A stretch of 64,000 nucleotides of DNA from IMG/VR virus record IMGVR_UViG_3300046167_000876. One strand, given 5' to 3'. Of this stretch, positions 27,008-49,836 are shown piece after piece. Made by a program: the position numbers and the translations under genes. The stretch's first letter is position 1. Each line of letters opens with the position of its first letter. The notes beneath the pieces were generated by a model. That model was not told the origin of the DNA. It did no database searches and saw only the letters and a list, made by a program, of their open reading frames with translations. Source of the stretch: a virus.

Positions 27008-27016
27008 ATATTTATA
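27008..27016 (+). promoter_or_regulatory. Putative late promoter ATATTTATA
   Basis: 16 nt upstream of ATG 27033. Confidence 0.65.
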
Positions 27017-27032
27017 ATAAACATACATTATA

Positions 27033-28739
27033 ATGAAAGATAACTTTGATGTCCATAAATGGAACTATAATAGATACTTAAAAGAAGCAATGGGTCTTGA
27101 TATTGATAAATCAGGAGGAACGGATGATATAGACCAAGATGATATAGATGGGTCTTTAAATGTAACTCGTGGTGGAGATGATCCTAAAATTGGGGCAGAA
27201 GAAGAATCTGATAGTAATGTAGTAGGAGAAAATAAATCTTACCTAGAAAAATTAGCTAAATATTTAAACAAAACATACCCAGAATTAACATGGGAAGTTA
27301 GATTTGGAGAAAGAATTGATGCATATGGTTCCCAAAGTGATTTATTTAAGTTTGGAAATAAATATCATGGTAAAAAATTTGGGGACTACGAAGTATTTCA
27401 CGTAGATGATGATGACAGATTAGATATTGTTCGTGTTGTTAAATCTTCTAAATTAAGAGGAGGTATAAATGAAGCAAGTTATATGTACAAAGGATATAAA
27501 GACAAGCATTTTGATATTTGCCCTGGGGCTGAGGCATTAAGAGATAGATTATTAGCTGGTGAATTTAAAGATAATAATTGGGCTACAGGAACTGATTTTG
27601 AAAAAGAAGTAGGTGAATGGCTTTATCAACATGACGTAATATTTGGTATTGAAAAAAAGATTATAAAAGATAAAGAAGGTGATGAAAGTGATATAGCTAA
27701 AGCTAAAGAAGCTGAAGGTAGAGTTGTTAACTTATCTCGTGATTTAGGTATTCCGGCTTCTGAAATAAATGCTTATCTTCCTGCTCATATTAAAACCATT
27801 AAAGATATGGTTGAGTATAGTTCATTAACTGAAAGTATTAAAGAAACACTTCGTTTTATTAAAGAAAACAACCCAGATTTTACAAACGAGGAAATTAAAG
27901 CTGAACTTAAAGAAATTAAAGCTTTAGGTGAACAGCTAAAAGAAGAAATGTGTAAAAGAGGGAAAAATTATATGGCAGCTAGAAAAAAAGCAGGTGAAAA
28001 ATCTTCAGCTTATCTATCTGGCCGTGCCGTTAAAGTTTGTAAGGGTCAGATTAAAGGATCTGATGGTAAAAAGAAAAAATCATTTGAGTCTTTAAATGAA
28101 GTAAATAATTCTGATATTGTTAAAGCTTTAGCTAAAGTAGTAGACATGGAACCTAAAGATGTTGTAGCTAAAATAAATGCAGATAAAGAGGAAGTAAATG
28201 AAATAGCAATTACAACCGCTATCACTATTGCAGGTCTTCTTCCAGCGGCTATGGAATTAGTAGGTGGTGTTTTTAATAAAGCTAAAAATTCTTTTAAATT
28301 AGATGAAAAAGAAAAAACAGAATATTTAGCATTACAACAATTCTACAAGGAAGCAAAAGATAAAGATGAAAAGAAAAGACTTAAAAAAGAAATGGAACCC
28401 TATGAATCTAAAATAGGAAACTGGTTTAAAGATGCGGGGCATTCTTTACACAAAGCTTATACAACTCCTATTAGAGGGTTACTATGGATGGCTTATAAAC
28501 TTGCACCTAAAGATTCTAAGTTCCATAAATTTTTAAGTGATAAAGAAAACAGAGAGAAAGCAGCTAATGTTATTTATGCTGCTGCAATGATTGGAATAGC
28601 AGGATATGGGGTTGCTTCACATATAGGACATTTAAAAGGTGTATCTGATGTAGCTATTACTATTGCAGATAGTATTAAAGGAGGCAAAAGTGTAAAAGAT
28701 GCTGCTTTAGGTGGTTTAGAATTACTTGGTTTAGTATAA
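27033..28739 (+). CDS. Modular putative internal head polyprotein (leader MKDNFDVHKWNYNRYLKE) with hydrophobic C-terminal domain
   Basis: DNF-type leader; junctions YLKE|, GINE|, SLTE|, QLKE|, SLNE|, EVNE|. Confidence 0.55.
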   Translation: MKDNFDVHKWNYNRYLKEAMGLDIDKSGGTDDIDQDDIDGSLNVTRGGDDPKIGAEEESDSNVVGENKSYLEKLAKYLNKTYPELTWEVRFGERIDAYGSQSDLFKFGNKYHGKKFGDYEVFHVDDDDRLDIVRVVKSSKLRGGINEASYMYKGYKDKHFDICPGAEALRDRLLAGEFKDNNWATGTDFEKEVGEWLYQHDVIFGIEKKIIKDKEGDESDIAKAKEAEGRVVNLSRDLGIPASEINAYLPAHIKTIKDMVEYSSLTESIKETLRFIKENNPDFTNEEIKAELKEIKALGEQLKEEMCKRGKNYMAARKKAGEKSSAYLSGRAVKVCKGQIKGSDGKKKKSFESLNEVNNSDIVKALAKVVDMEPKDVVAKINADKEEVNEIAITTAITIAGLLPAAMELVGGVFNKAKNSFKLDEKEKTEYLALQQFYKEAKDKDEKKRLKKEMEPYESKIGNWFKDAGHSLHKAYTTPIRGLLWMAYKLAPKDSKFHKFLSDKENREKAANVIYAAAMIGIAGYGVASHIGHLKGVSDVAITIADSIKGGKSVKDAALGGLELLGLV

Positions 28740-29817: not shown

Positions 29818-30645
29818 ATGGACAACTTTAATTATCAAGCTTATCTTAAAAGTGGCAAAATCCACGGAGAAAAAGCAATTTTAACCGAATCAGAACAAGT
29901 TTCTGAAAAAAAATACAAGCAAGGATATGACGATAGAGAAGATGAATCTCTAGGCGCACGTAGAGGTGCTGAAAAAGGCAAAAAACAATCTATGAAAGAT
30001 CGTAGAGACGATTCTTATGGAAAATTTGGCAAACGTGATGCTGAAAAAAAAGGCAAAAACAAAGTTAACAAAGAAAGCTTATCAGAAACTATTGCTGAAG
30101 CTAAAGCTAAAATTGATGAGGGTTCTTACCCATTTGATCAATGTTTGGTTGATAATGAAGGTAAATATGGTAAAAAAGGTGCTGCTAAAGTATGTGGTGC
30201 TATTAAAGCCCAATATGGTGAAGGTATTGTAAATGAAGATGCTAGAACTGATGCTGAACAAGAAGGATATAAAGATGGGTTTGAAGATGCTAAAGATGAT
30301 ATTGAAGGAGCATTAAAGAAAATGAAAGTATCTGAACTTAAAGATAAAATTAAAACTGAAATTCTAAGTAACTTATCAGAAGCTGAAGAAGAAGTAGACG
30401 TTGATATTGATGTTGAAGACGAAGTTGAAGTAGAAGCAGGAGCTGACGATATTGAAATCGAAAGACCAGGAGTTAAAACAACAGTAGATGTTGGTTTATC
30501 CCCAGAAGAAGAAGTAGTACAAGATTCTTTAAAAGCTGCAATGGATGCTGCTAATGAATTAGGTAACCAAAAATTAGCTGATCAAATTGGTAATACAATT
30601 ACTTTCTTTACAAGAGAATTTGTAGTTGGTCAAAATACTGATTAA
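29818..30645 (+). CDS. Putative prohead core/internal protein sharing a module with the scaffold
   Basis: Leader MDNFNYQAYLKSGKI; EDARTDAEQEGYKDGFEDAKDDIE..MKVSE also occurs in ORF 49962-51134. Confidence 0.6.
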   Translation: MDNFNYQAYLKSGKIHGEKAILTESEQVSEKKYKQGYDDREDESLGARRGAEKGKKQSMKDRRDDSYGKFGKRDAEKKGKNKVNKESLSETIAEAKAKIDEGSYPFDQCLVDNEGKYGKKGAAKVCGAIKAQYGEGIVNEDARTDAEQEGYKDGFEDAKDDIEGALKKMKVSELKDKIKTEILSNLSEAEEEVDVDIDVEDEVEVEAGADDIEIERPGVKTTVDVGLSPEEEVVQDSLKAAMDAANELGNQKLADQIGNTITFFTREFVVGQNTD

Positions 30646-30648
30646 TAC

Positions 30649-33066
30649 ATGCTTAACGAACGTAAACTTACGGAAAGAGAACTAGATAAACGTGCTGAAG
30701 TAATTCAAGGTTTGTTGTCCAATAAACGCACACTAGTTAAAAAGTACGGAAAGGATGCGGAAAAAGTAATGTATGGAATCGCAACTAAACAAGCTAAATC
30801 TAAAGTGGAAAACATGAATAAAGAAAAAATTAAAGAATTAATACAACAAGCCATAACTATACCTTCAACCCCTTCTTTAGAAGAAGGTCATGGTTTGGAT
30901 CAAGGTGATTTAGATATTCTACAAAATTTTGTAGACAGATTAGGAGCAAAAGATCGACAAATAAAAAAAATACTTAAGTTTATTCTTAAATCAAACATAT
31001 TACAAGACAAAACAAAAGATTTATCTAAAGGTAAAGTCAATGAAAATAGATATGACCTAGATGATCCTAATTCTCCTTTAAGTAAATTGAATGATAATGA
31101 CAAAGATGTAGCTATACTAAACAATATGACTAAAAAGTATGGTAAAGATGTTGTTTTAATGTGGATGTCAAGTGGAGAATATGGAGGTAGAAAAACCACC
31201 AAATCCGGCATAGAATATGTTTCTGAAGATCTAGATGTAGGACATCAAGACAACGAACCTCACATGCTTAAAAAAGAATTAGCTAGAGCAGGTCAAATGA
31301 TACAAATGCTTTATAGAGCAGTAGATAACTATGATGGTCAAGGTGAAGTAGATTTCCCACAATGGTGGCAAGCTAAAATTATCAAAGCAAATACCATGTT
31401 AGATAGTGCTTTTGATTATTTAGATGGTGAAGAAATGGTGGCTAAAATAGATGCTATGATTGATGGGGCAGATGAAGTTGAAGTGGACATTGATGTTGTT
31501 AATGAAGATGAAGTACAAAAAAGACTTGATGCTGAAAAAGCAATTAAATCAACACTTAAAGATGAAGGTGGAGCCGCTGGTATAAAACCATTAGCTAAAG
31601 CTGTAAAAAAATTAGATATTAGTAAAGATGAACTACTTAAAATGATTAAAAAAGTAGTTGGTGTTGCTAAACATAAACATGGAGATTATATTTCAACCCC
31701 TATAAATGAAAATGTAGATAAAAAATACAGTGATTTCCTATTAGCCTTAAGAGACTCAGGTGTAACTAATATGTTCGGTGCTGCTCCTTACTTACAAACA
31801 GAATTTGGTTTAGATAAAAGAGAAGCAAGAGAAATCTTAGCTAACTGGATGAAATCATTTAATGAAGGAATCGACTATGATGAAGCTTTAACATTAAGAG
31901 GAATGTTAGCTGATTTAAAGAAAGAAAGAGAGCAATTATTTAGAGACATGGAGCAAGAAGCTGAACCAGAAGGTGGGCCAATTGCTGATAGATACGGTGA
32001 TGAATTAAATAAAGTTGAAGACCGTATGTATAAAATTGCCAAACAACTTCGTGATTATGATATGAATGAATCACAAGAAGTAAAAGAAAATTATACCAAA
32101 GAAAAACTACTAAAAAAATTAGGCGATGCAGACGATGCTCGTATTCAAACTGGTAATGGAAGAGAATATATAGTATACAATCCTAACTCTAATAATGATG
32201 ATAATGCTGCTATGTGGCATGATGACTCAGTATTCGCTGTTGATCAAGACGGAGGCGAACATGAAATAAATTATAGCGATATAGGGTTAGTTATGGTAGA
32301 GGAATCATTAAACGAAGCAATGGATGGTGGTCGATTATTTGATTACTTTAATAAAAAATATGTAGTAGATGATCATTTTCATAGTGATGATAGTTACATT
32401 GTTAAAAGAGAACCATCTGGAAAAGATCAATATGTAATATTTGATTACGATAAAGATAAAGATCAATTCCAAATTAGACAAATGGGTGGTTATAGAATCG
32501 ATCAAAAAGATGCTATTAAAGCTGGAATGAGAGAAACAGGTATTACACGTGTTGCTGGGATAGATTCTTATATGGTAGATGGTAATTACTCACCAACTCC
32601 TATTTCAATTGAAGGTTTAAAAGATATAGTTGATCATGTAATGGGTGGTTTAAGTAGAGAAGCAGCTGCTCAACAAGATTATTATGCTAGAAGAGGTAAA
32701 ACTTCAGGTACTATAGATGAAAAAATATCTAATGCGGTAAAAGAAAAACTAACCAAATCATCTTCAGTAGAAGATCATGTTGAAGATTTTAAAGATTCAG
32801 ATGCACCTCAATTTAAAGGTAAATCATTAAAGAAAATCAAGCAAATGGCTTTAGCATCATTTTTATCAAAACAAGGTAAAAAAAAAGTAGCTGAAGGGTT
32901 TAAAGTAGGTCAAAAAGTAACTTATCTAGGACACCCAGCTGAAATCACTAAAGTTAACAAAGAAATGACTGGTGCTACTACTTATAATGTATTATATGAT
33001 AAGGGTAATGGTAAAACTAAAGCATCAAACCTTTATAATAAAGGTGGTGAAATAAAAGCTGTATAA
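30649..33066 (+). CDS. 805-aa modular putative internal head polyprotein
   Basis: About ten short unrelated segments delimited by MLNE|, SLEE|, KVNE|, YVSE|, VVNE|, PINE|, SFNE|, DMNE|, SLNE|, AVKE|, KVAE|. Confidence 0.55.
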   Translation: MLNERKLTERELDKRAEVIQGLLSNKRTLVKKYGKDAEKVMYGIATKQAKSKVENMNKEKIKELIQQAITIPSTPSLEEGHGLDQGDLDILQNFVDRLGAKDRQIKKILKFILKSNILQDKTKDLSKGKVNENRYDLDDPNSPLSKLNDNDKDVAILNNMTKKYGKDVVLMWMSSGEYGGRKTTKSGIEYVSEDLDVGHQDNEPHMLKKELARAGQMIQMLYRAVDNYDGQGEVDFPQWWQAKIIKANTMLDSAFDYLDGEEMVAKIDAMIDGADEVEVDIDVVNEDEVQKRLDAEKAIKSTLKDEGGAAGIKPLAKAVKKLDISKDELLKMIKKVVGVAKHKHGDYISTPINENVDKKYSDFLLALRDSGVTNMFGAAPYLQTEFGLDKREAREILANWMKSFNEGIDYDEALTLRGMLADLKKEREQLFRDMEQEAEPEGGPIADRYGDELNKVEDRMYKIAKQLRDYDMNESQEVKENYTKEKLLKKLGDADDARIQTGNGREYIVYNPNSNNDDNAAMWHDDSVFAVDQDGGEHEINYSDIGLVMVEESLNEAMDGGRLFDYFNKKYVVDDHFHSDDSYIVKREPSGKDQYVIFDYDKDKDQFQIRQMGGYRIDQKDAIKAGMRETGITRVAGIDSYMVDGNYSPTPISIEGLKDIVDHVMGGLSREAAAQQDYYARRGKTSGTIDEKISNAVKEKLTKSSSVEDHVEDFKDSDAPQFKGKSLKKIKQMALASFLSKQGKKKVAEGFKVGQKVTYLGHPAEITKVNKEMTGATTYNVLYDKGNGKTKASNLYNKGGEIKAV

Positions 33067-33068
33067 TA

Positions 33069-33539
33069 ATGACTAAAGCAGAATTAAGAGAAAAAATTAA
33101 AACATTAGCAGTACAAGTTATGGCTGAAAAAGCTAAAACTGATGATGCTGCCTTAGCTTATGATGAGTTAGTTAAATTCCCAGCTTTAAAAGATATTATA
33201 GTGGATCTATTAACTGATCAATTTGATTCATTTTTAGAATCAGTTGATTGGGTAGCTCCACGTCCTACAACTTTTCGTATAAATTTGTTGAATGGGCAAA
33301 ATTTCTTACTTATGTTTACGGACAGAAGTTGGATAGGACAAGTACAAGGAAAAAAATATTATTTACTAAACCTCGATGAGGAAGAAAGATGTGCTCTAGC
33401 GATTAACAGACTTCTAAGAGTAGGACCCGCTAGTGGTGCTGAAATGGAGGGAGAAGCAAGTGAAACTGATACAACAACAGACACAGCTGATACCAAAGTT
33501 GAAGATGAAGTAGATGTTAACGTGGACGTAGAAGCATAA
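33069..33539 (+). CDS. Hypothetical protein with acidic C-terminal VEDEVDVNVDVEA tail
   Basis: 156-aa ORF in the operon. Confidence 0.55.
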   Translation: MTKAELREKIKTLAVQVMAEKAKTDDAALAYDELVKFPALKDIIVDLLTDQFDSFLESVDWVAPRPTTFRINLLNGQNFLLMFTDRSWIGQVQGKKYYLLNLDEEERCALAINRLLRVGPASGAEMEGEASETDTTTDTADTKVEDEVDVNVDVEA

Positions 33540-33556
33540 AATAAAATATAAATAAA

Positions 33557-33958
33557 ATGGATAATTTCGATTTAAGAAAATATTTAGCTGAAGGTAGGCT
33601 ATTAAAAGAAGACATCACTAAGCTAAGAGGGCAAGAATTACTTGATCTATTTAGTTTTACTAAATACATGAATGTTGATGTAGAAGAATTAGAAACCGAA
33701 TTTATAGAAGCTATTAATGGTGGATGGTTTACTGATCCTTCAAACTTTGAAGAAGAAAAAAAAGACTTTACATATGAAAGTGGAGACAGATTTTTAGATA
33801 CTAATGAAGATAAAATGTCAGAATATTTAGGATTTAAAATTGATACTTCTCGTATGATTGATGATTATACTATGGGGGATCCAATGGGAGTAGAATTTGT
33901 ACATTCTGATGAAGATTTTGAAGGTTGGATGGATGAAGTAGGTTCATTTTGGGATTAA
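33557..33958 (+). CDS. Acidic protein with MDNFDLRKYLAEGRLLKE leader (putative capsid-targeted internal protein)
   Basis: Leader nearly identical to those at 37090, 37702 and 38331. Confidence 0.65.
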   Translation: MDNFDLRKYLAEGRLLKEDITKLRGQELLDLFSFTKYMNVDVEELETEFIEAINGGWFTDPSNFEEEKKDFTYESGDRFLDTNEDKMSEYLGFKIDTSRMIDDYTMGDPMGVEFVHSDEDFEGWMDEVGSFWD

Positions 33959-33972
33959 AATAAAATAAAATA

Positions 33973-35536
33973 ATGAGTATATTCGATAAATTTTTTACAA
34001 AATTTGCTTATAAATTTGACAAAGGATATCCTGACATGAATAATGATCAGGATGTTTTGTTATTAGAGACATTATTAGACCAATTAATTTTATTAGAATT
34101 TGAAGATAAAGGTAATATTCCAGATGATATAGAACAAATTAGATCTTCAATTAATACCCACCCCGAATATAAAGATAAAGTTGAGGCTGTTCAAATGGAC
34201 ACTAAGACAAATGTTTTTATATACATAAAAGGTGTTTCTGGAACTGTTAGAGCAGCTAGAACAGCAGTAATGAAGGATTTACAGGACAAAGGATTATTAC
34301 CCAAGGGTGAAATAAATGATGAAGGCTCACCATATTTAAAAACTGGTGATTATAAAATTTATATAAAGGGAGCAGGAAAAGATAAATATGCTACAAATAC
34401 TGATCAAAAAGAAGGTTTAGTAGTAATATTTTACAATGCCCTAAAACAAGGTTGGAACAAAAAACAAGACCCATTTAATAAAGATAATATGTCATCCCTA
34501 CTATCAGATTTAGTATCTTTAGAGGGTAACATATATGATGGATTAGGTTCAAAAGCAAAGGGTCAAGTTAAAATATATTTAGAAAGATTTGATGACGAAT
34601 CTTCAAGCAGTAAAGGGGCACAAGTTATATTAAATGATAATCTATCATCTGCCTTAAGAATATTTGAAGATTACCCTGAAGGAGAAATGATGAGGGGTGA
34701 AACTTTTGATAGAATAAAATCCCAACAATCCCAAAAAGCAGGTTTAAAAGCAGATAAAGTAAACCCTGGTGATATCTTTTTAAAAGTTGGTGATATTTCT
34801 ATACCCCCAACAGATGAAGTTGATGTAACAGGGTTAGAAGAACTTAATAAGATATTTGTTAATAAATGGGGGGATAAACCTGGTTTAGTAGCAATTTCTT
34901 TAAAAGGAGAAAAAGCACAAGCCGGTAAAGCCAAATCTTATTTAAATAAATTTAAACCAAAAGAAGTAGAAGGACAAGTACCAGACATATATAATTTATC
35001 AGATGAAGAAATAGGTTACTCTGATGACCAATTTGATAGTGCTATTGACCAATATAAAAAATCTACAATAGAAAAAATAGGTAGTAGTGAATTTATAGAT
35101 TATAAACAGGGTAAAAACCCCTTCAACAACTAATCGAAAGAAATTTAAATTAGCTGCTTATAAGGCTTTAGATTATTTATTTAGACATTTAAAGAATGAA
35201 GGAGCATTAACACCTGCTCAAGGTTTAGTCAAAATGACAGCCTTTGGTATGTCTATCACCGATGTTAACCCAACATTTTTTAAACTTATAGGTAAAAGTA
35301 ATGGGTCAATGGCACCAGTTCCTGAAAGAACACCAGCAGGGGCAACCGCCCAATTAACCCCAGGAACTAAAATAACAATACAAGATGATTCTACTTATGG
35401 TGGTTTAAAGATAAACATATCCGTTGATATATTAGAAGGTGCTGAAGTATATTCTCAATATGATTTAGAATTAGTGATGAGAAGTAATGGTAATAAACAA
35501 AACACTATTGAAATCCAAAAATCAACTAAAAAATAA
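33973..35536 (+). CDS. Hypothetical protein (~520 aa) split by an indel in the A5C4 run at 35113-35121
   Basis: Removing one base gives GKTPSTTNRKKFKLAAYKALDYLF..GLVKMTAFG, joining ORFs 33973 and 35234. A PGDIFL..ISLK segment loosely resembles a PD-(D/E)XK core. Confidence 0.55.
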
Positions 35537-35544
35537 TATTTATA
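35536..35544 (+). promoter_or_regulatory. Putative late promoter ATATTTATA
   Basis: 10 nt upstream of ATG 35555. Confidence 0.65.
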
Positions 35545-35554
35545 ATAAAACAAT

Positions 35555-36847
35555 ATGTGTAACTGCGGATGTAATACTTGTGAAACAAAAGGACCTTTAT
35601 TAACAGAAGGTAAAGTTAAATCTTTACTATCTGAAGGTCTTCAATATCACATAGATAAAAAAATACCATTATTTGAAACAGTATATCGTATTGGTTCAGA
35701 AAAACATCTATCTTTAATTAAAGAAGCTAGAAAAATGTATTCACGTAATATAATCGATTTATGTGAGGAAGATGAAGCATTGATTGGTACAAATTTAGGT
35801 GAATTTGCTTTATATGAAGGCGAATCTGTACCATTAGATTTACCTATGTTAAATGAATCAGATTCTAACTACCCAGATTTTGATTTAAATAAAAACATAA
35901 GATACCAAGATACATCTATTTCAAGCGGAATGTGGAGATATACAGGTAAAGAACAAGGTGGAAAAGGTGTTTATAGAAATTTAAATAATGGTCAAATATT
36001 AGGCTTTGATAGAAGTGATTTTGATATATTTAGAAACAATCTTAGTAGCCATTTTGACATTTCAGAATCAATTAATGAAGATATATACGATAAATTTTTA
36101 GATAATCCATCTTCACCAAAGGGTAGAGCGAAATCATTAATATTAAAGTTTACAAAAGAATATGGAGATGATGCTTCATCAATGGCTGTAGATAGATTCG
36201 CTAGTAAAAACAACCTAAAACCTGAAGAAAAGTACATATTAAAATATATTACTAAAAACGATATTAAAATATCTTCACAACCAGGAGGACCAGATTTCTC
36301 GGCATTAAATGAAAGTCAAGCAATAATTACTTTCAAAAATGATTATGAAGTTAAAATGAATACCGGTGAAGGGTATGACGATGACTTTGAATATTTTGAA
36401 GCGGGTGAAAGAGAGCAAGTTTATATCTTAGATAAAAATGATAAAAGAGTGCATGTTGAATTTGGTGACGGAACTAATGCTTATATTCCAACAAGTTTAA
36501 TATCAATTCAAGATAAATTATTAAATGAAGATGAGCAATTAGACGAAAAGAAAAAGGCTAAGAAAAAAGAAAAAAAAGACCCACCATTAAATAAACCAAA
36601 ACGTGGTGGTTCAAAAGCATATTATGTTTATGTACGTGATCCTAAAACTAAAAAGATTAAAAAAGTATCATTTGGATCAGGTGGTTTAAGAGCTAAAATT
36701 AAAAACAAAGAAGCTCGTACTGCATTTGCCGCTAGACATAATTGTAAAAATAAAAAAGATAGAACTAAAGCAGGATATTGGTCATGTAATTTACCAAGAT
36801 ACGCTCCAGCATTAGGATTAGGTGCTAAAATGAATACTTTCTGGTAA
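35555..36847 (+). CDS. Modular putative internal head polyprotein: N-terminal MCNCGCNTC, C-terminal basic KKVSFG..FAARHNC..AGYWSC domain
   Basis: Junctions LLTE|, LLSE|, MLNE|, SINE|, ALNE|, LLNE|, QLDE|. Confidence 0.6.
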   Translation: MCNCGCNTCETKGPLLTEGKVKSLLSEGLQYHIDKKIPLFETVYRIGSEKHLSLIKEARKMYSRNIIDLCEEDEALIGTNLGEFALYEGESVPLDLPMLNESDSNYPDFDLNKNIRYQDTSISSGMWRYTGKEQGGKGVYRNLNNGQILGFDRSDFDIFRNNLSSHFDISESINEDIYDKFLDNPSSPKGRAKSLILKFTKEYGDDASSMAVDRFASKNNLKPEEKYILKYITKNDIKISSQPGGPDFSALNESQAIITFKNDYEVKMNTGEGYDDDFEYFEAGEREQVYILDKNDKRVHVEFGDGTNAYIPTSLISIQDKLLNEDEQLDEKKKAKKKEKKDPPLNKPKRGGSKAYYVYVRDPKTKKIKKVSFGSGGLRAKIKNKEARTAFAARHNCKNKKDRTKAGYWSCNLPRYAPALGLGAKMNTFW

Positions 36848-36848
36848 A

Positions 36849-37097
36849 ATGGATCCATACGTAAATAAAGGTAACATAAGAACGTTTTCGAAAGATGTAA
36901 ATAAACTAGAACTAGTTTGGCATCAAGACTCTGAAGATAGAGATATCGAAGTATTAGAAGGTAAAGGATGGGAATTACAAATGGATAACGAATTACCCTT
37001 TGAATTAGTAAAGGGAGATCGTATATTTATAACAGAAGGTAGAATACACCGAATATTAAAAGGTACTACTGATTTAAAAATAAAAATAAATGGATAA
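36849..37097 (+). CDS. Small cupin-fold protein
   Basis: WHQD.EDR.I.VLEG.GW..GDRIFITEGRIHRI. Confidence 0.6.
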   Translation: MDPYVNKGNIRTFSKDVNKLELVWHQDSEDRDIEVLEGKGWELQMDNELPFELVKGDRIFITEGRIHRILKGTTDLKIKING

Positions 37098-37695
37098 TTT
37101 TGATTTAAAAAAATATTTAGCTGAAGGTAAATTATATGAAACAATTAATCTTGATATAGAAGATGATATAGCATACCTAAGTGGAGATTCAGGTGAATAC
37201 GAAGGTGAAATTGAAGATGGAAAGACATCTTTTTCTGTTATATATGATGATTTAGATTATAGAATATCAGATAGATATGATGAAAGTAATATTGAAGATT
37301 TTTTAGGTAGAGGTCATGCATTTGTAGAATTAGCTAAAAAATATGACCATAATTGGGATGTTGAACGTGATTTAGTTGGTATAACAATAAAATTAAAAGA
37401 TTTAGCTGAAGGTAGACTAGAAAAAGAAATGGGTGATAATAGACCTCCTGAGAGGTTAAAATTAGATCCTGACTATGATAAAGGTGGTAAATACTATAGT
37501 GAAGAAGGTGCTGAAGCTTTTAGAATCCAACCTTTTAAAGTAAACGATATTGAATATACTCAAGACCAAGCAGTTAGACAAGGTAAATATATTGTAGGAT
37601 TAGAAGGTGAAGAACTAAAAAAATTTATTTCTGATTACATGGCAGCATGGAAAGAAGATGTAGGAGATACACCTGAAGGAAAAACTTTTAAATAA
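37090..37695 (+). CDS. Acidic protein with MDNFDLKKYLAEGKLYE leader and an internal LAEGRLEKE
   Basis: Shared leader. Confidence 0.65.
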   Translation: MDNFDLKKYLAEGKLYETINLDIEDDIAYLSGDSGEYEGEIEDGKTSFSVIYDDLDYRISDRYDESNIEDFLGRGHAFVELAKKYDHNWDVERDLVGITIKLKDLAEGRLEKEMGDNRPPERLKLDPDYDKGGKYYSEEGAEAFRIQPFKVNDIEYTQDQAVRQGKYIVGLEGEELKKFISDYMAAWKEDVGDTPEGKTFK

Positions 37696-37701
37696 AAAAA
37701 A

Positions 37702-38301
37702 ATGGATAACTTTGATTTAAAAAAATATTTAGCTGAAGGAAGACTATTTGAAGAAGATTTTAAAAATCCAATTCTAGATAAATATTTAGAACTAAAAAAA
37801 TCAATAGATAACAATACAGCTTTTGAATATGAACTATCAGATTTTATTAATGATTTAGATAATACTGAACGTGAGGGATTAGAAAGCGATTTAGGATTAG
37901 AAAGAGATGAGTTATATGAAGGTAAGCTCTTTGAACAAGAAAGATATAAAAAAGTAGAGGATGATGCGCAAGATGGTACCTTTTATGTTTCCGGATATGA
38001 TATGGAAAATGAAAGGGACATTGAGGATTATTTTGTTGATCTTGATTATGGTAAATATAAATCTGCTACTCAAGAATTATTAGATCTTGCTATGGAACAA
38101 GGACACGAGTATGAAAGTATAGAAGATTATTACGAATATGTTGAAGGATTTGAAAATGATCTAAAAGATTATGCTGAAGGTGAAGAAGTACCTGATTGGA
38201 AGATGAATGATCTAGCTATGCGTTATGGAACTGATTATAGTCAATTTTACGGTGAAGAAGAAGATGAAGACTATGAAGAAGAAGAATATGAAGATTATTA
38301 A
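37702..38301 (+). CDS. Highly acidic protein with MDNFDLKKYLAEGRLFEE leader and an internal LYEGKLFEQE
   Basis: Shared leader; C-terminus GEEEDEDYEEEEYEDY. Confidence 0.65.
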   Translation: MDNFDLKKYLAEGRLFEEDFKNPILDKYLELKKSIDNNTAFEYELSDFINDLDNTEREGLESDLGLERDELYEGKLFEQERYKKVEDDAQDGTFYVSGYDMENERDIEDYFVDLDYGKYKSATQELLDLAMEQGHEYESIEDYYEYVEGFENDLKDYAEGEEVPDWKMNDLAMRYGTDYSQFYGEEEDEDYEEEEYEDY

Positions 38302-38330
38302 AAATAAAAATATAATAAAAATAAAATAAA

Positions 38331-38639
38331 ATGGATAATTTCGATTTAAAAAAATATTTAGCTGAAGGTAAGCTATTAAAAGAAGAAGTTGAAAAAATAA
38401 GCAACGAAAAGTTTACTATTATTTATGATGCTAATGATATGACAGAGTATGAAGTATTCAATAAATTACTCTCTGATGATGAAGCTGAAGCTGCTGAAGA
38501 AGATTTTAAAATCTTAGATGATGATATGGAAACATTTGTTTTAGATTCTGAAACCCCAGCTAGCGAAATTTTAGACTATGCTTCTTCACAAGAAGAATTA
38601 GAAGATTATGGTTTAAGTAAATATTGGAAATTCAAATAA
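38331..38639 (+). CDS. Acidic protein with MDNFDLKKYLAEGKLLKE leader
   Basis: Shared leader; the first 56 nt differ from those at 33557 at two positions. Confidence 0.65.
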   Translation: MDNFDLKKYLAEGKLLKEEVEKISNEKFTIIYDANDMTEYEVFNKLLSDDEAEAAEEDFKILDDDMETFVLDSETPASEILDYASSQEELEDYGLSKYWKFK

Positions 38640-38640: not shown

Positions 38641-38706
38641 ATGAATTGTAATTGTAAAGCATGTAATTGCGGAACATCATGTGGATGTGATTGCTGTAAT
38701 TGCTAA
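38641..38706 (+). CDS. Metallothionein-like micro-protein MNCNCKACNCGTSCGCDCCNC (21 aa, 9 Cys)
   Basis: Translated by hand; starts 1 nt after the upstream stop; CxC and CC arrangement. Confidence 0.65.
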   Translation: MNCNCKACNCGTSCGCDCCNC

Positions 38707-38765: not shown

Positions 38766-38789
38766 TGTGGCCTCCATTTGGAGGCCACA
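38766..38789. terminator. Perfect inverted repeat tgtggcctcca-tt-tggaggccaca (putative terminator or operator)
   Basis: 11-bp arms, GC-rich in an AT-rich background, at the end of the late block. Confidence 0.55.
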
Positions 38790-38830: not shown

Positions 38831-40127
38831 ATGAGTAAAAACGTAGTAATGATTGGAGCAGGTGTAGCAAATGTAAATGCTGCTACTAAGCTAGTTGACA
38901 ATGGGTTTAAAGGTAAAATCACTATTATTGATATGGGTAAAGATCCATATTTAAGACCATATGAAGAGGTAATGACAGGTTTTCTAGGAGCAGGAGGTTG
39001 GTCTGATGGTAAACTAACTTATCATACTTCAATTGGAGGGCAATTATCTAAATATTGTGGTGAAGAAAAAGCAATGGAATTATTTGATCAGGTGATAGAT
39101 AATTTTAAACGTTTCCACCCTAAACCAGAAGAAGTACAATGTTCAAATCCAGTTGCGGAACCAGATTTTATTAAACCTTATTTTGGACTACGTTTATTCC
39201 CTGTATGGCATGTTGGTACTGATTACTTACACGAGATAGGTAAAAATTGGTATGACTTTTTAGTTGATGGTGGTGTTGAATTTATTTGGGAAACCAAAGT
39301 TACAGATATTGATTTTGATAATCAAGAAGTACATATTGGATTAGGAGACGATTGGATAGATTATGATGAACTTATATTTGGTGTAGGTAAATCAGGTATT
39401 GACTTTGGTAAACAATTAGCTGAAAAATATGAACTACCAACTGAACCAAAACCAGTTCAAATAGGTGTTAGATTTGAAGCACCACAAAAACACTTTTCAA
39501 AAATTAATTGATATAAGTTATGATTTTAAATTATATAGAAAATTTGAGGAAGCAGGAGTATCACTTCGTTCCTTTTGTACTAATAACAATGCAGCTTATG
39601 TAGGCTGTAGAAGAAACATACTGGTAATCCATTCATATAATGGTCACGCTAAAAAAGACGAAAATTTAGAAACGATATGACCTAATTTTGGTATATTAAT
39701 GGAAGTTAGAGGTATTGAAAAACCATTTGAATGGTCAAGAGATGTAGTAAATAAACTACAAAAAGATGGTACTGGATTATATTATAGTCCAACTAGAGAA
39801 CCATCAACAACATCAGAAGGTGTAAATGTATCAGCAATTAAAGTAGATACAATGCATGAAATAACTAAAGCGATGCAACCATATTTTTGGTATGTACTAG
39901 ATTTTATAGAAGATATGAAAAAGGTATTCCCAACACTTAAAGATGATTGGGGTATTTATGTACCTGAAGTAAAATATCTATCACCTGAGCCGCTTGTCGA
40001 TTATACCAATTTAGCACTTACTAAGTATCCTAATGTACACTTTGTAGGTGATGCTTTATCAGCTAGAGGTATAACGGTAAGTGGTGCACAAGGAACATAT
40101 GTTGCTGAATCACTTTTGGAGAATTAA
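38831..40127 (+). CDS. FAD-dependent oxidoreductase (uncharacterised FAD-dependent dehydrogenase type), split by indels near 39495 and 39600-39685
   Basis: IGAGVAN Rossmann motif, GAGGWSDGKL, IGVRFE, RSFCTN, NGHA, VPEVKY, FVGDA..RGI..SGAQG. Confidence 0.8.
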
Positions 40128-40988: not shown

Positions 40989-41756
40989 ATGAAAAAATCT
41001 GAATTAAAAAATTATATCAGAGAAAATATTATCTCTACATTATCTGAAGATACTGAGGCAGAAATTGAAAAAACTAAAGAATTAACCTCAGCAATCAAAG
41101 ATCTTGAAGCTGCTAAAAAAGAAGCGGGTATAGAAGAAGATGCAACACCAAAAGGTGAAGACTTTTTTTATGATTATTTAGATATTGGCATGTCTTATTT
41201 AGAAGGATTTGGTAAAAAACATTCTTTAGATGATAGTCAGTTAGAAAAACTAGGTAAAAAAATAGTAGACCAATTATATAAAGGTGATGTTGGTAAAGCA
41301 TATGATGCCATTGTTAAAAGAGGTGTAATGAAAGAAGATAAAGGTGGGAATTTTGCTGAATTAAAAAAACACCAAAAAATGCTTAGGGATGCTTCTTTAT
41401 TTTATATAAATAAGGCAGAAAATTTAGGTATTGAAAATGTTAATAATTTAATACAAGCATTTAATAAAGGAGTAAATGGTTTAGAAGATGCTATTTTTAA
41501 AGCTGACTATAAAAGAACAGATGGTAAAATAGACGAAAATGAAGATAAAGAACCATCTAAATCTGATATTAAAAAAACAAAAGGTTTAGCTAAAGCAAAA
41601 GAAGAATTAGCTTTATTAACTCGTGAAATGAAGTCCTTAGCTAAAAAATATTCTAAAGCTGAAGGTGAAGAAAAAGAAAAATTAGTTAAAACTTTAAAAA
41701 AGAAAACTAAATTAAAAAAAGAACTAGAAAGTATTCTAGATAAAAAGAAAATATAA
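40989..41756 (+). CDS. Modular putative internal head protein (leader MKKSELKNYIRENIISTLSE)
   Basis: Junctions TLSE|, GIEE|, VMKE|, KIDE|. Confidence 0.5.
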   Translation: MKKSELKNYIRENIISTLSEDTEAEIEKTKELTSAIKDLEAAKKEAGIEEDATPKGEDFFYDYLDIGMSYLEGFGKKHSLDDSQLEKLGKKIVDQLYKGDVGKAYDAIVKRGVMKEDKGGNFAELKKHQKMLRDASLFYINKAENLGIENVNNLIQAFNKGVNGLEDAIFKADYKRTDGKIDENEDKEPSKSDIKKTKGLAKAKEELALLTREMKSLAKKYSKAEGEEKEKLVKTLKKKTKLKKELESILDKKKI

Positions 41757-45948: not shown

Positions 45949-46812
45949 ATGAATATTAAACACTCAAAATACAAAAATACAGGAATTCTTTTTGAATTAC
46001 TAGTACGCCAAATTACTGCTGATACTCTTAAAGGTAGTAATTCACCCGCTATAGATATATTAAAAGAATATTTTGTTAATACTTCTTTAGGAAAAGAATA
46101 TAAACTGTATGAATCTATACTTAAATCTAAAGTAATAACTGAAGGTAGAGCTACATTAGTTATTGATACTTTATTAGAGGCATCTACTAAATTTAATAGA
46201 AAATCTTTAAAAAAACAAAAGTATAATTTAATTAATGAAATTAAAAAACATTATAATTTAGAATCCTTTTTTGGTTCTAAAATTACAAATTATAAAGAAT
46301 TAGCTGCTTTATATACTTTAATAGAAAATATTAATTCTAAATCTATATCAAATCCAACACAGTTAGTTGATAATAAAATTACTTTATTAGAACATTTAAC
46401 TAAAAAAGAAGTTACTCAAGATTCAAAACAAACAGTACTTGAAGAATTTTCTACATATGATAAAGATGTAAGAACCCTTACATATAAAGTATTATTGGAA
46501 AAATTTAATGATAAGTATGATAATTTAACCCCACAACAAAAACAAATTCTTAAAGAATATATTAATTCTGTAGATTCAACTCCTGATTTAAGAAATTTTT
46601 ACAATTCTAAAATTATAGATTTAAAATCTATGCTAAAAGAATCAATTAAAAATATTAAAGATAAAGCTACTCAAGTTAAAATAGTTGAAGTATCTAAATT
46701 TTTAGTTGAATTGAAAAAAACAGATAAAGTTGGAGATGATAATTTAGTTGATTTGTTGCGTTACTATCAATTAATAAATGAAATACAAATAGCAAATGGC
46801 TCTCAAGTATAA
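45949..46812 (+). CDS. Conserved head-module protein (possible prohead core component)
   Basis: MNIKHSKYKNTGILFELLVRQI; lies between portal and protease. Confidence 0.55.
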   Translation: MNIKHSKYKNTGILFELLVRQITADTLKGSNSPAIDILKEYFVNTSLGKEYKLYESILKSKVITEGRATLVIDTLLEASTKFNRKSLKKQKYNLINEIKKHYNLESFFGSKITNYKELAALYTLIENINSKSISNPTQLVDNKITLLEHLTKKEVTQDSKQTVLEEFSTYDKDVRTLTYKVLLEKFNDKYDNLTPQQKQILKEYINSVDSTPDLRNFYNSKIIDLKSMLKESIKNIKDKATQVKIVEVSKFLVELKKTDKVGDDNLVDLLRYYQLINEIQIANGSQV

Positions 46813-47828: not shown

Positions 47829-49229
47829 ATGAAATCACCAGAAAAATTACATAAGGAATTAACAGAAAAATTAATTACTGAAAATTATATTGATTTAAAC
47901 CCAATTACAACTTTTGAAGCAACTCCAAAAGCGGATTTTGAAACTAAGTTTGCTCAGTTTTTAGCAGAAAAAAAAGGGGAAGAATTAAAACCTGTTGTTA
48001 ATACAGATGAATCAATTAATACTCTAAAAGATTCAGAAGGAATATCTGCAGATTCTAAAGCTAAATTTGAAGGTAAAGGATTTCAAGCTTCTTATAAAGT
48101 AGATAAAACTTTAGAAAATATTGATTCTCATAATTATGATTATGATACTACTATAGAAAATATTAATAATGTTAATGGTGAAGAATTACTAAAAGGTGTT
48201 CAATTAGAAACTAGTTATAATAGTGAATTAACCTTAGATGAAGCTAAAGAGCTTGTAATTAAAAATTTATCTAAAGACCCTTTACATTATGTAAAAGAAG
48301 GTCAATTTGGTGTTAAAGGTTTAGGATACACAGAAGCTAAAACACAAAAAGTAGATGGTAAACATGCCGCTAGTGGTTATAGTGAAAAACTAAAAGATAG
48401 TGATAATACATTTGATTTAGTAAAAGAAAACTATAGTTTTGATGAAGCAAGAGAAAGAGCAATTGAAGCTTCTCAAAGAGAAGCAGGAATTGAAGAAGAT
48501 AAAAGACCAGATTATCCAGATGTAGATGGAGATGGTGATACTAAAGAACCAATGGAAAAAGCACTTAAGGATAAAAAAGAAAAAAAGAAAAGAATGAAAA
48601 AAGAAAGTATAGATTCTAAATTAGCTGAAATAGGAAAAGAAGCAGAAGCTGTAAAATTAGAAGCTCAGTTAGATTTTTTACATGATCATATTCAAGAAAA
48701 AGTAAATAGAGTTAGTTCAATTCAGGAAGATGAAAATTTAAGTGAATTAATTGACAAAGTCAAAATGAAACAAATGCAAAAAGAAATCAAGCTTTTAGAA
48801 AAAAGAAAAGCTAAGATGGAAAAAATTTACGAAAAATCTTGTGGTAAAAAATATGCTAAAAAAGAAATGGTAGATGAAAATGAAGTAGAATCTATTAATG
48901 AAATTGGTGCAAATGATATGGTTGTAAGCTATAGAGATGAGGAAAAAATTCCTATTAAGTTTACAGGTTTTGAAGCTTTTGATGGAAGAGATGGTGGACA
49001 GGATACAACAGACAATCAAGGTAGATTTGTTGTAAGAATGAAAGCTGAAAGAGTTGATGGCCAAAAATTAGCAGGCAAGGATAAATTCTCAGTTCAGGTA
49101 GTGACTAACCCAGGTGTTTCTAAAATAACACCAGATGGTACTATTCCCTTTCCTGATCATGATAGATACTCTTCACCAGAAGTTGTAGATTATGGAAATA
49201 CTATTAAATATATAAAAGATAATATTTAA
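47829..49229 (+). CDS. Modular putative prohead core/internal protein with a DxDxDG Ca-binding-like loop
   Basis: PDVDGDGDTKE; junctions LITE|, FLAE|, LVKE|, GIEE|, SINE|. Confidence 0.55.
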   Translation: MKSPEKLHKELTEKLITENYIDLNPITTFEATPKADFETKFAQFLAEKKGEELKPVVNTDESINTLKDSEGISADSKAKFEGKGFQASYKVDKTLENIDSHNYDYDTTIENINNVNGEELLKGVQLETSYNSELTLDEAKELVIKNLSKDPLHYVKEGQFGVKGLGYTEAKTQKVDGKHAASGYSEKLKDSDNTFDLVKENYSFDEARERAIEASQREAGIEEDKRPDYPDVDGDGDTKEPMEKALKDKKEKKKRMKKESIDSKLAEIGKEAEAVKLEAQLDFLHDHIQEKVNRVSSIQEDENLSELIDKVKMKQMQKEIKLLEKRKAKMEKIYEKSCGKKYAKKEMVDENEVESINEIGANDMVVSYRDEEKIPIKFTGFEAFDGRDGGQDTTDNQGRFVVRMKAERVDGQKLAGKDKFSVQVVTNPGVSKITPDGTIPFPDHDRYSSPEVVDYGNTIKYIKDNI

Positions 49230-49230: not shown

Positions 49231-49836
49231 ATGAGTAAATCTCTTTTAATAGAAACAAATACCTTTAAAATTAACCCTCTCCAGTTAACAGAAAATGTTA
49301 ACAAGGAGACGGGTAATTTAATGGTTGAAGGAATTTTAGCTACTGCTGAAGTTAAAAATGGAAATGGTAGATATTATTCAAAAGATCTATGGGATAGAGA
49401 AATGGATAAATATAATGAACTTATTGAACAGAGACGTTCAATGGGGGAATTAGATCATCCTGAATCAACTGTTATAAATTTAAAAAATGTATCTCATCTA
49501 ATATCAGATTACTGGTGGGATGGAGATAATGTAATGGGTAAAATAGAAATTCTACCTACTCCTTCAGGTCATATTCTTAAGGAATTAATTAAAGCAGGTG
49601 TAACAGTAGGTGTTTCATCTAGAGGTATGGGTTCATTAGAACAAAGAGGTGAAATAATGGAAGTACAAGATGACTTTGAATTATTATGTTGGGATTTTGT
49701 ATCAACTCCTTCAAATCCCGGTTCTTTTATGCATACTTTAAATGAAGGTAAAAATATAATTACCTATGATTATACAAATATTAATAAAGTAATACATGAA
49801 ATTCTTTGCTCTAAAGGTTCTTGTCCTATTTTTTAA
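49231..49836 (+). CDS. gp21: Prohead core protease (T4 gp21-like)
   Basis: KNGNGRYY, GELDHP, ILPTPSG, GVSSRGMGS, DFVSTPS. Confidence 0.95.
   Translation: MSKSLLIETNTFKINPLQLTENVNKETGNLMVEGILATAEVKNGNGRYYSKDLWDREMDKYNELIEQRRSMGELDHPESTVINLKNVSHLISDYWWDGDNVMGKIEILPTPSGHILKELIKAGVTVGVSSRGMGSLEQRGEIMEVQDDFELLCWDFVSTPSNPGSFMHTLNEGKNIITYDYTNINKVIHEILCSKGSCPIF

What the first reader, a model, noticed from the sequence alone, without database searches (positions are those of the whole stretch)
33557..38639. Four genes share a near-identical MDNFDL(K/R)KYLAEG(K/R)L leader on unrelated acidic bodies: putative capsid-targeting sequence and cassette array
Seen: genes at 33557, 37090, 37702 and 38331 share about 45-56 nt of 5' sequence (33557 and 38331 differ at 2 of 56 nt) plus an upstream aaataaaa-type tract, then diverge completely. 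Degenerate versions lead 27033 (MKDNFDVHKW) and 29818 (MDNFNYQAYLKSGK). YLAE parallels the FIAE end of the T4 IPII/IPIII targeting sequence. The bodies are visibly D/E-rich. Inference: a portable packaging tag carries small acidic, possibly DNA-mimic, anti-defence proteins (compare T4 IPI* against GmrSD and T7 Ocr), and the DNA repeat doubles as a recombination handle for swapping cargo.
Basis: partly seen in the sequence, partly recalled or inferred. Interest (0 to 1): 0.88.

Follow-up and report, generated by a model that had tools for sequence, protein, structure and literature searches.

The report
Shared capsid-loading tag on phage proteins
An uncultured marine T4-like phage puts the same 19-residue N-terminal tag, ending in the cut motif of its head protease, on four unrelated small acidic proteins (and its relatives on over a thousand), most likely to load exchangeable cargo into the capsid as T4 does, though packaging is not yet shown.

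Summary
Four genes (33557, 37090, 37702, 38331) start with MDNFDL[KR]KYLAEG[KR]L. Their bodies are unrelated and acidic (pI 4.0-4.4).

The window is a roughly 160-kb marine T4-type myovirus, related to Flavobacterium phage immuto. It encodes a gp21-type (Peptidase_S77) prohead protease, a scaffold and a gp23-type capsid protein.

- **Spread:** the tag heads at least 1,251 protein clusters (50% identity) in metagenomes. None of 57 sampled tagged proteins hits Pfam.
- **Internal copies:** the tag core also sits inside proteins, at module junctions.
- **Recombination:** DNA homology breakpoints between related phages fall on the tag.
- **Variable slot:** a conserved slot upstream of the terminase holds one to four or more tagged genes.
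- **Other tags:** the same bodies carry other tags elsewhere, which share only aromatic-L-[AVT]-E-[GN].
- **Protease link:** this is the shape of T4's MKTYQEFIAE tag and of conserved sites at both ends of this lineage's proteases.

Best reading (about 55%): a T4-like capsid-targeting propeptide cut after Glu12, which also serves as a recombination handle. Packaging, cleavage and any anti-defence or DNA-mimic role are untested. The acidic cargo differs from T4's basic internal proteins.

The scan noted this tag family before in another genome (e1-5632165), and similar tags elsewhere. This is a new variant of a known kind.

The parts
33557..33958 (+). Tagged gene 1 (133 aa): 19-residue tag plus an acidic body (pI 4.05). 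The same body occurs elsewhere as a second module behind the tag core.
37090..37695 (+). Tagged gene 2 (201 aa): tag + module A + internal tag remnant (37395-37439, K-D-LAEGRL) + module B. Its ATG overlaps the stop of gene 36849.
37702..38301 (+). Tagged gene 3 (199 aa): tag + module C + internal remnant (37912-37941, LYEGKL) + module D. D+E is 33%.
38331..38639 (+). Tagged gene 4 (102 aa). The model shows a folded alpha/beta body (residues 19-102) behind a low-confidence tag helix, with lowest confidence at residues 12-15 (E-G-K-L).
33536..33612 (+). Tag DNA repeat, copy 1. The other copies are at 37069-37145, 37681-37757 and 38310-38386.
27033..28739 (+). Gene with the long, degenerate tag subtype (M-K-DNFDVHKW...YLKE-A), preceded by the late-type motif at 27008.
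29818..30645 (+). Gene with the MDNFNYQAYLKSGK tag subtype. This subtype is portable elsewhere (on module B in P0322). The body shares a module with the scaffold protein.
   Evidence: (D8)
30649..33066 (+). 805-aa multi-module protein. Three of its segments occur in other phages as separate small tagged genes.
40989..41756 (+). Gene with a second tag class (MKKSEL..YIRE-N). Related phages put this class on bodies that elsewhere carry the MDNFDL tag.
35536..35549 (+). ATATTTATAATAAA motif, a probable late promoter at the start of the unit that ends with the tagged array.
38766..38789 (+). Strong terminator-like hairpin (10 pairs, 7 G-C) closing the array's transcription unit.
36849..37097 (+). 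Conserved 82-aa gene forming the upstream border of the hypervariable slot (found in 57 of 120 tag loci).
38831..40127 (+). FAD/NAD-binding oxidoreductase-like gene forming the downstream border of the slot. It is split into pieces in the window and is one intact ORF of 428-435 aa in relatives.
47829..49229 (+). Head-module protein with an F-L-A-E site near its N-terminus. Residues 260-350 are homologous to part of a tagged protein in L055.
49231..49836 (+). Prohead protease (Peptidase_S77, T4 gp21 family), with conserved L-x-E-[GNS] sites near both termini (L-T-E-N at about residues 19-22, L-N-E-G-K at 170-174).
49962..51134 (+). Acidic scaffold-like protein (34% D+E) that shares repeat modules with tagged or degenerate-tag genes.
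51176..52831 (+). Major capsid protein of the Gp23 family.

Best explanation
The 19-residue N-terminal tag is a detachable propeptide of the T4 capsid-targeting type.

**Proposed mechanism**
1. The tagged genes are made late, from a unit driven by the same promoter motif as the portal gene.
2. The first part of the tag (M-D-N-F-D-L, with aromatic residues at positions 4 and 9) would hold the protein on the scaffolding core of the prohead.
3. The Peptidase_S77 prohead protease would then cut after Glu12 (Y-L-A-E | G) and free the cargo inside the head.
4. Where cassettes have fused, the retained internal L-x-E-G sites would be cut in the same way, so one ORF would deliver two or three modules.
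5. At the DNA level, the roughly 55-nt tag repeat is the site where cassettes are exchanged, deleted and fused by homologous recombination. This yields a hypervariable slot 4-5 kb upstream of the terminase gene.

**Shown**
- The tag is portable.
- The tag core occurs at internal junctions.
- Recombination breakpoints fall on the tag.
- The protease family is present and carries matching conserved sites.
- The gene context is late and head-adjacent.

**Inferred**
- Binding to the core, cleavage, retention in the virion and injection.
- What the acidic cargo does is unknown. Host take-over or counter-defence is the leading guess, because the cargo turns over so fast.
For: 1. The tag is identical on four unrelated bodies in the window.
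2. A capped scan of viral contigs gave 120 loci with 162 tagged ORFs and 44 body families. A tag profile finds 1,251 clusters at 50% identity.
3. Synonymous sites in the tag vary (AAY 36/64, TTY 52/48) while the residues are fixed, although the search pattern itself demanded those residues. Independent of that pattern, the same bodies carry alternative tags elsewhere: MKELYRFRQFLAEG, MKDNF[DN]LRKFLVEN and MKKSEL..I[KR]E. These keep only aromatic/[LI]-x-E.
4. T4's tag is MKTYQEFIAE, cut once after E (PMC8442874). Residues 4 and 7 serve targeting, and residues 8 and 10 serve processing (PMC9026906). T4 ipII and ipIII share the tag and its upstream DNA.
5. The window encodes Peptidase_S77 and Gp23. 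Of 30 tag-bearing contigs, all fragments, 19 encode S77, including 11 of the 13 contigs of 48 kb or more.
6. Twenty proteases of the lineage keep [LIV]-x-E-[GSN] near both termini while the flanks diverge. T4 gp21 is also processed at its ends (PMC9026906).
7. Internal copies keep Y/F-L-x-E-G-[KR]-L while the M-D-N-F-D-L part decays. An old junction kept L, E and G and changed only the x position (LYEG).
8. Tagged genes cluster 10-19 kb upstream of the protease gene in large contigs. In phage immuto, one tagged gene lies between the protease and scaffold genes.
9. Modules are shared with the scaffold protein and with head-module protein 47829.
10. The AF2 model of 38331 has a folded body, with lowest confidence exactly at residues 12-15.
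11. The late-type motif and the terminator bracket the array.
12. DNA breakpoints fall at 37130-37140, 37395-37398 and 37917.
Against: - No proteomic, cleavage or fusion data exist for this phage or for any relative.
- All tag-bearing contigs belong to one phage lineage, so co-occurrence with the S77 protease is not phylogenetically independent.
- The cargo is acidic (median pI 4.23), whereas T4's internal proteins are basic (pI 8.6-9.7). Acidic proteins are less obvious passengers of a DNA-filled head.
- Conservation continues five to six residues past the proposed cut (G-[KR]-L-[LFY]-[KE]-E). T4's loose cleavage rule does not require this, so the unit may do something more or something else.
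- Some junctions between modules lack the motif.
- One body occurs in the window without the tag (gene 23157).
Confidence: 0.55

Rival explanations
1. The tag does target proteins to the prohead core. However, the acidic modules are expendable core or scaffold filler, like T4 gp22, gp67 and gp68. They would be degraded and expelled at maturation and not delivered to the host.
For: - The bodies are as acidic as the scaffold protein.
- Tagged and degenerate-tag proteins share modules with the scaffold and with head-module protein 47829.
- In T4, most scaffold proteins are degraded and leave the capsid (PMC8442874).
Against: - Structural filler would not be expected to turn over this fast: 44 families among 155 bodies, and 1,251 clusters.
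- Copy number ranges from one to four or more between close relatives.
- At least one body is a compact folded domain.
Confidence: 0.17
2. The tag has no capsid role. It would be a cassette-boundary element kept mainly because recombination happens there, together with a good A/T-rich translation start. The encoded peptide would be a tolerated or merely structural N-terminal and linker helix on cytoplasmic accessory proteins.
For: - Breakpoints lie on the tag.
- The first ten codons are very A/T-rich and sit in an A-rich start context.
- Conservation extends beyond the putative cut site.
Against: - Alternative tags with different DNA keep the same aromatic-L-x-E-[GN] peptide core on the same bodies.
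- Old internal copies keep L, E and G although no translation starts there.
- The same motif is conserved at the proteases' own termini.
Confidence: 0.15
3. The tag is a recognition sequence for some other partner, such as a modifying enzyme (RiPP-like), a chaperone or a host factor. An earlier case in this scan, an RB43 tag, turned out this way.
For: - About half of the tag loci share the same neighbours: an 82-aa gene upstream and an FAD/NAD-binding oxidoreductase-like gene downstream.
- A Cys-rich 21-aa ORF follows the array.
Against: - No peptide-modifying enzyme family was found among the neighbours.
- The oxidoreductase gene lies behind a strong terminator and is broken in this window.
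- Tagged genes also occur at other places with other neighbours (33557).
Confidence: 0.06
4. The four genes are simple paralogues that diverged except at the N-terminus.
For: The genes are adjacent, share an orientation and have similar composition.
Against: - No pairwise similarity beyond residue 19 (best E 0.05).
- Each body has its own orthologues at 85-100% identity in other phages.
- Each is found recombined with different partners.
- The secondary-structure order predicted for 38331 differs from that of module A of 37090, although the latter model is weak.
Confidence: 0.02

Closest known systems
Phage T4 capsid targeting sequence (CTS) on internal proteins IPI, IPII, IPIII and Alt, removed by the gp21 prohead protease (Mullaney & Black 1996, as cited in PMC9026906, PMC8442874 and PMC3012670)
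   Same: - A short N-terminal propeptide (10-19 residues in T4, about 12 to the cut here) is shared by otherwise unrelated proteins.
- It ends in aromatic-[IL]-A-E.
- The phage encodes the same protease family, a Gp23-type capsid protein and an acidic scaffold.
- The tag and its upstream DNA are repeated between genes: T4 ipII/ipIII and the window.
   Different: - The tag sequence differs and is conserved for about 19 residues, beyond the presumed cut.
- The cargo is acidic (pI about 4.2) and not basic.
- Many more cargo families are involved.
- The tag core also occurs inside proteins as a junction between modules.
- Nothing has been shown experimentally here.
Polymorphic internal-protein loci of T-even phages (Repoila et al. 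1994, as summarised in PMC3012670 and PMC9026906)
   Same: Closely related phages carry different proteins behind a conserved CTS at the same locus. This is read as an arms race with host defences.
   Different: - The variation here spans hundreds to thousands of bodies in uncultured marine phages of Bacteroidota-type hosts.
- Recombination breakpoints map onto the tag, and bead-on-a-string fusions occur.
- I could not read the 1994 paper itself.
Propeptide and multi-site processing of head and ejection proteins in giant phages (phiKZ, 201phi2-1, SPN3US), as summarised in PMC9026906
   Same: - Cleavage occurs C-terminal to Glu after a short motif, by a diverged gp21 homologue.
- Many head proteins are processed, some at several sites.
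   Different: Those phages do not have one near-identical portable leader on small cassettes. Their cleavage motif is also different.
Polyvalent proteins of phages and conjugative elements (Iyer et al. 2017, PMC5512222)
   Same: Multi-module proteins are delivered with the DNA, and the modules shuffle.
   Different: Those proteins are large and built from recognisable enzymatic domains. Here the modules are small, acidic and match no Pfam family. I read only the abstract listing of that paper.
Acidic DNA-mimic anti-restriction proteins (T7 Ocr, ArdA)
   Same: Small, very acidic phage proteins.
   Different: - The only confident model has no fold match.
- Ocr is an early cytoplasmic protein that is not packaged (my own knowledge).
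- The resemblance is in composition only.

Membership tests
T4-type capsid targeting sequence / internal-protein system | A short N-terminal propeptide shared by otherwise unrelated proteins of one phage | tested here: met
   Four genes share residues 1-13, with similarity to about residue 18. Their bodies are unrelated.
T4-type capsid targeting sequence / internal-protein system | The propeptide ends in the prohead-protease motif ([LI]-x-E, cut after E) | tested here: met
   The sequence motif L-A-E-G is at residues 10-13. The alternative tags keep [LI]-[AVTK]-E. This is a sequence match only.
T4-type capsid targeting sequence / internal-protein system | The phage encodes a gp21-family protease, a scaffolding core and a gp23-type capsid | tested here: met
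   Peptidase_S77 at E 7.7e-29 and Gp23 at E 4.3e-74. There is also an acidic scaffold-like gene.
T4-type capsid targeting sequence / internal-protein system | The propeptide is actually removed by the protease | not testable with these tools
   Only indirect evidence: conserved matching sites at the proteases' own termini and low model confidence at the site.
T4-type capsid targeting sequence / internal-protein system | The tag is sufficient to load a protein into the prohead, and the cargo is found in virions and injected | not testable with these tools
   No proteome or fusion experiment exists. A search of held full texts for the tag sequences found no paper.
T4-type capsid targeting sequence / internal-protein system | The cargo is small basic proteins (true of T4's IPs, though perhaps not defining) | tested here: not met
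   Bodies have median pI 4.23, and 85% are below 5. T4 IPI-III have pI 8.6-9.7.
T4-type capsid targeting sequence / internal-protein system | A polymorphic locus: different cargo behind the same tag in related phages | tested here: met
   The slot between the homologues of 36849 and 38831 holds one to four or more different tagged genes in eight related loci, with breakpoints on the tag.
RiPP-like leader recognised by a modifying enzyme | A dedicated modifying enzyme encoded next to the tagged genes | tested here: not met
   Neighbours have no peptide-modifying family in Pfam or PHROGs. The nearby oxidoreductase-like gene lies behind a terminator and is split here.
DNA-mimic anti-restriction proteins (Ocr/ArdA type) | A fold or charge pattern that imitates B-form DNA | tested here: inconclusive
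   Acidity is confirmed. The 38331 model (pLDDT 79) has no PDB match (best E 0.7). The other bodies were modelled poorly.
Polyvalent proteins (Iyer et al. 2017) | Several recognisable conflict-related enzymatic domains in one polypeptide | tested here: not met
   0 of 57 tagged proteins match any Pfam family at E<=0.001.

The most novel reading that the evidence does not exclude
Marine Immutovirus-like T4-type phages run a natural plug-and-play cargo system. One cleavable address tag loads any of more than a thousand unrelated, mostly acidic, mini-proteins into the capsid for injection with the DNA. These would include bead-on-a-string polyproteins that the prohead protease cuts apart at internal tag cores. 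The tag's DNA would act as the cassette-exchange site, and the cargo would be a large undescribed reservoir of host take-over or anti-defence effectors, some of them DNA mimics.
Probability: 0.2. Interest if true: 0.8.

Novelty: new variant of a known kind. Interest (0 to 1): 0.62.

Why it matters
If the tag works as in T4, it becomes a sequence-only way to read out which proteins a large, abundant group of uncultured marine phages carries into the host with its DNA. That would be more than a thousand families with no known function.

It would also show several things:
- The T4 capsid-targeting principle is old and general among phages with gp21-type proteases.
- The same element serves as both address label and recombination site.
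- Fused cassettes can be delivered as protease-cut polyproteins.

The cultured phage immuto carries a sister tag, so the idea can be tested directly. A second, different capsid-loading tag could also be useful for protein delivery by phages of Bacteroidota.

Tried and rejected
- **Family searches on window genes:** Pfam and PHROGs on the four bodies and their neighbours gave nothing useful.
- **Family searches on tagged proteins:** Pfam on 57 tagged proteins gave 0 families. PHROGs gave 8 hits, all of unknown function.
- **Cultured phages:** tblastn of gene 33557 and of the 21-residue tag against 50,697 cultured phage records found no match. Only the sister tag (FLVEN type) was found, in phage immuto. 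The MDNFDL..LAEG DNA pattern itself is absent from immuto.
- **Own genome:** no whole genome is held for the window.
- **Fold search:** Foldseek of the 38331 model against the PDB found no match.
- **ESM Atlas:** the look-up of 37702 returned a poor model (pLDDT 0.47) and no meaningful neighbours.
- **AlphaFold2 of 37090:** mean pLDDT was 51, too weak for fold comparison.
- **Complex prediction:** the protease with residues 1-45 of 38331 gave no verdict (score 0.01). This counts neither for nor against binding.
- **RNA libraries:** contigs from four metatranscriptome studies cover the array with few or no differences. Contigs from RNA libraries cannot prove transcription, so I use this only as presence in seawater samples.
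- **Bacterial and archaeal genomes:** the tag pattern found only two MAG contigs, probably mis-binned phage DNA.
- **Literature:** the Repoila 1994 paper could not be read. No held paper contains the tag sequences.
- **L-x-E-G counts:** I counted the motif over the window's proteome. Outside the tagged genes the excess is too small to be evidence on its own.
Full report
**What the window is**

All long ORFs lie on the + strand of a 31% G+C sequence. PHROGs and Pfam identify the following:
- a large terminase at 42429;
- a T4-type portal at 44028;
- a Peptidase_S77 prohead protease of the T4 gp21 family at 49231 (E 7.7e-29);
- a 34% D+E scaffold-like protein at 49962;
- a Gp23-family major capsid protein at 51176 (E 4.3e-74).

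The nearest cultured relative is Flavobacterium phage vB_FspM_immuto, a 160-kb myovirus from the Baltic Sea, which has the same gene order around the head module. The exact product of gene 38331 is on record on 41 contigs, the longest 161 kb. Runs from seawater and marine viral metagenomes hold the stretch. The window is therefore part of a roughly 160-kb uncultured marine T4-type phage.

**The observation**

Genes 33557, 37090, 37702 and 38331 begin with the same 13 residues, M-D-N-F-D-L-[KR]-K-Y-L-A-E-G. They stay similar to about residue 18, G-[KR]-L-[LFY]-[KE]-E.
- The degenerate DNA pattern for the tag hits these four starts and nothing else. None of 100 shuffles gave a hit.
- The DNA repeat family is 73-92% identical over 77 nt.
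- Beyond residue 19 the four proteins share no significant similarity (best E 0.05).
- The bodies are acidic, with pI 4.05-4.40 and 25-33% D+E.
- The A-rich tract upstream is the general start context in this lineage and not a special signal.
- Two internal copies of the tag's second half exist, at 37395-37439 in gene 37090 and at 37912-37941 in gene 37702.

**How widespread the tag is**

These held 162 tagged ORFs of 30-336 aa, with up to four per locus.
- The 155 bodies of usable length fall into 44 single-linkage families. The four window bodies are in four different ones.
- A profile of the first 30 residues, searched against 1.84 billion cluster representatives, finds 1,251 clusters at E<=0.001, many with two to four tag stretches.
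- None of 57 representative tagged proteins matches any Pfam family.
- Bodies are acidic as a class, with median pI 4.23 and 85% below 5.
- Among bacterial and archaeal genomes, only two MAG contigs carry the tag.

**Protein-level signal**

Inside the tag, synonymous positions vary as codon usage predicts (AAY 36/64, TTY 52/48), although the search pattern itself fixed the residues.

More telling, the same bodies carry different tags in other phages:
- M-K-E-L-Y-R-F-R-Q-F-L-[AT]-E-G;
- M-K-D-N-F-[DN]-L-R-K-F-L-V-E-N-K-L-T, which is also present on immuto genes 179, 194 and 195;
- a long form with an insertion, of which window gene 27033 and immuto gene 202 are examples;
- the M-D-N-F-N-Y-Q-A-Y-[LI]-K-S-G-K form of window gene 29818, which precedes module B elsewhere;
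- an M-K-K-S-[EQ]-L..I-[KR]-E class, found on window gene 40989 and on several immuto genes, one with a body that carries the MDNFDL tag in L003.

What all these share is an aromatic or aliphatic residue followed by [LI]-x-E and a small residue.

**Modules, fusions and recombination**

Gene 37090 is tag + module A + L-A-E-G-R-L + module B. Gene 37702 is tag + module C + L-Y-E-G-K-L + module D.
- Elsewhere, A, B and D each occur alone behind a full tag. C is followed by the same junction and at least four other modules, each of which also occurs alone behind a tag.
- Among 120 homologues of 37090, nearly all cover only one half. Module A is followed by L-A-E-G-[KR]-L..E and then by more than 20 different continuations, including the body of 33557 and module C.
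- Recent fusions keep the whole tag internally. Older ones keep only Y/F-L-x-E-G-[KR]-L, while M-D-N-F-D-L decays.
- Three segments of the 805-aa gene 30649 occur elsewhere as small tagged genes. Parts of 29818, 47829, 35555 and 40989 do so as well.
- At the DNA level, homology between the window and relatives that are 84-97% identical breaks at 37130-37140, 37395-37398 and 37917. These points lie in the tag or its remnants.
- L097 and L095 look like the window minus 37131-37916.
- The slot between the homologues of 36849 and the oxidoreductase-like gene holds between one and four or more tagged genes in eight related loci. About half of all tag loci are this slot.
- Large contigs carry one to seven tag matches, clustered 10-19 kb upstream of the protease gene.

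**Link to the head protease**

T4's tag is M-K-T-Y-Q-E-F-I-A-E, cut once after the Glu (PMC8442874). Residues 4 and 7 matter for targeting, and residues 8 and 10 for processing (PMC9026906). T-even internal proteins are described as a diverse set with only a conserved targeting sequence (PMC3012670). In the T4 record, ipII and ipIII share the tag and the DNA upstream of it, and their mature parts are basic.

The tag here ends Y-L-A-E-G and has aromatics at positions 4 and 9. The evidence linking it to the protease is:
- Of 30 tag-bearing contigs, all fragments at 17-77% estimated completeness, 19 encode Peptidase_S77. That includes 11 of the 13 contigs of 48 kb or more.
- An alignment of 20 proteases of the lineage shows [LIV]-x-E-[GSN] conserved near both termini while the flanks diverge. 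In the window these are L-T-E-N near residue 20 and L-N-E-G-K at 170-174. T4 gp21 is reported to be processed at its ends (PMC9026906).
- Head-module protein 47829 has F-L-A-E near its N-terminus, and its immuto homologue has F-I-A-E.
- The AlphaFold2 model of 38331 (pLDDT 79) has a compact alpha/beta body from residue 19. The tag helix has low confidence, and the lowest values fall at residues 12-15.
- The motif ATATTTATAATAAA occurs 17 times, always on the + strand just upstream of genes, including the portal gene, 27033, 35555 and 40989. Chance expectation is 0.8.
- The array ends at a 10-bp-stem terminator at 38766-38789.

The tagged genes are therefore read with the structural genes.

**Interpretation**

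The best reading is a T4-like capsid-targeting propeptide that is cut after Glu12. It doubles as a protease-cut junction in fused cassettes and as the DNA site of cassette exchange. I put this at about 55%. Every link to the capsid is circumstantial and comes from a single lineage.

The cargo is acidic, unlike T4's. This leaves two possibilities open:
- The modules are expendable core filler (about 17%).
- The tag serves recombination and translation only, with no capsid role (about 15%).

A tag for another enzyme is unlikely, because no such enzyme is nearby. I raise this rival because an earlier case in this scan turned out that way (e1-127136). Simple paralogy is excluded.

No test here bears on anti-defence or DNA mimicry. 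The only confident fold has no PDB match.

**Novelty**

The principle is known from T4 and the T-even internal-protein loci. Four things are new:
- the tag family itself, since no held paper contains it;
- its scale;
- the acidic cargo;
- the internal junction copies and the mapped recombination breakpoints.

The scan's own notes record the same tag family in another genome (e1-5632165) and analogous tags in other T4-like phages. I class it as a new variant of a known kind.

Noticed in passing
window 4398, 20207, 27008, 35536, 40964, 44003, 45925, 53771, 54335 and others: The 14-nt motif ATATTTATAATAAA occurs 17 times, all on the + strand and just upstream of genes, including the portal gene. 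Chance expectation is 0.8. It is probably this lineage's late promoter.
   Followed up: partly
window 38641-38706 and 35555-35640: A 21-codon Cys-rich ORF follows the last tagged gene. Gene 35555 starts with a similar Cys-rich peptide, directly followed by two L-x-E-G sites, so this may be another removable N-terminal piece.
   Followed up: no
window 38831-40127: The FAD/NAD-binding oxidoreductase-like gene downstream of the array is split into three ORF pieces here. It is a single ORF of 428-435 aa in six related loci. This is either a pseudogene or an assembly error.
   Followed up: partly
window 23157-23702: This 181-aa protein has no MDNFDL tag in the window. It is 52-57% identical to proteins that carry the tag in L021, L024, L027 and L045, so the tag is gained or lost on a given body.
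   Followed up: partly
window 46796-47584 and 51176-51420; L121 23106-23327: Gene 46796 and immuto gene 199 contain an E-E-M-S-T-T-G-G/A... stretch much like the capsid protein's segment just after its likely maturation site (V-V-E-E-S-N-T-G-G-G). They may imitate the capsid protein's N-arm.
   Followed up: no
window 33973-35133; L116 3178-4650: The first 28 residues of gene 33973 are identical to those of a 490-aa protein at the same place in L116, but the rest does not align. Immuto gene 193 starts similarly. This may be another shared N-terminal piece on different bodies.
   Followed up: no
window 5471-15130: A very long ORF (about 3,200 codons) is made of 9-nt-period Gly-X-Y-like repeats with four 1.3-kb super-repeats. 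It is probably a collagen-like fibre.
   Followed up: no
L116 7041-8521; L098 (minus strand, ORF at 1193 in reverse coordinates): Three tandem genes carry the alternative tag M-K-E-L-Y-R-F-R-Q-F-L-[AT]-E-G on modules that bear the MDNFDL tag in the window. This tag is closer still to T4's M-K-T-Y-Q-E-F-I-A-E.
   Followed up: partly
L142, L143 (genome contigs): The only two bacterial-genome hits for the tag are MAG contigs, one binned as Microbacteriaceae (115 kb). They are probably phage contigs placed in the wrong bin.
   Followed up: no
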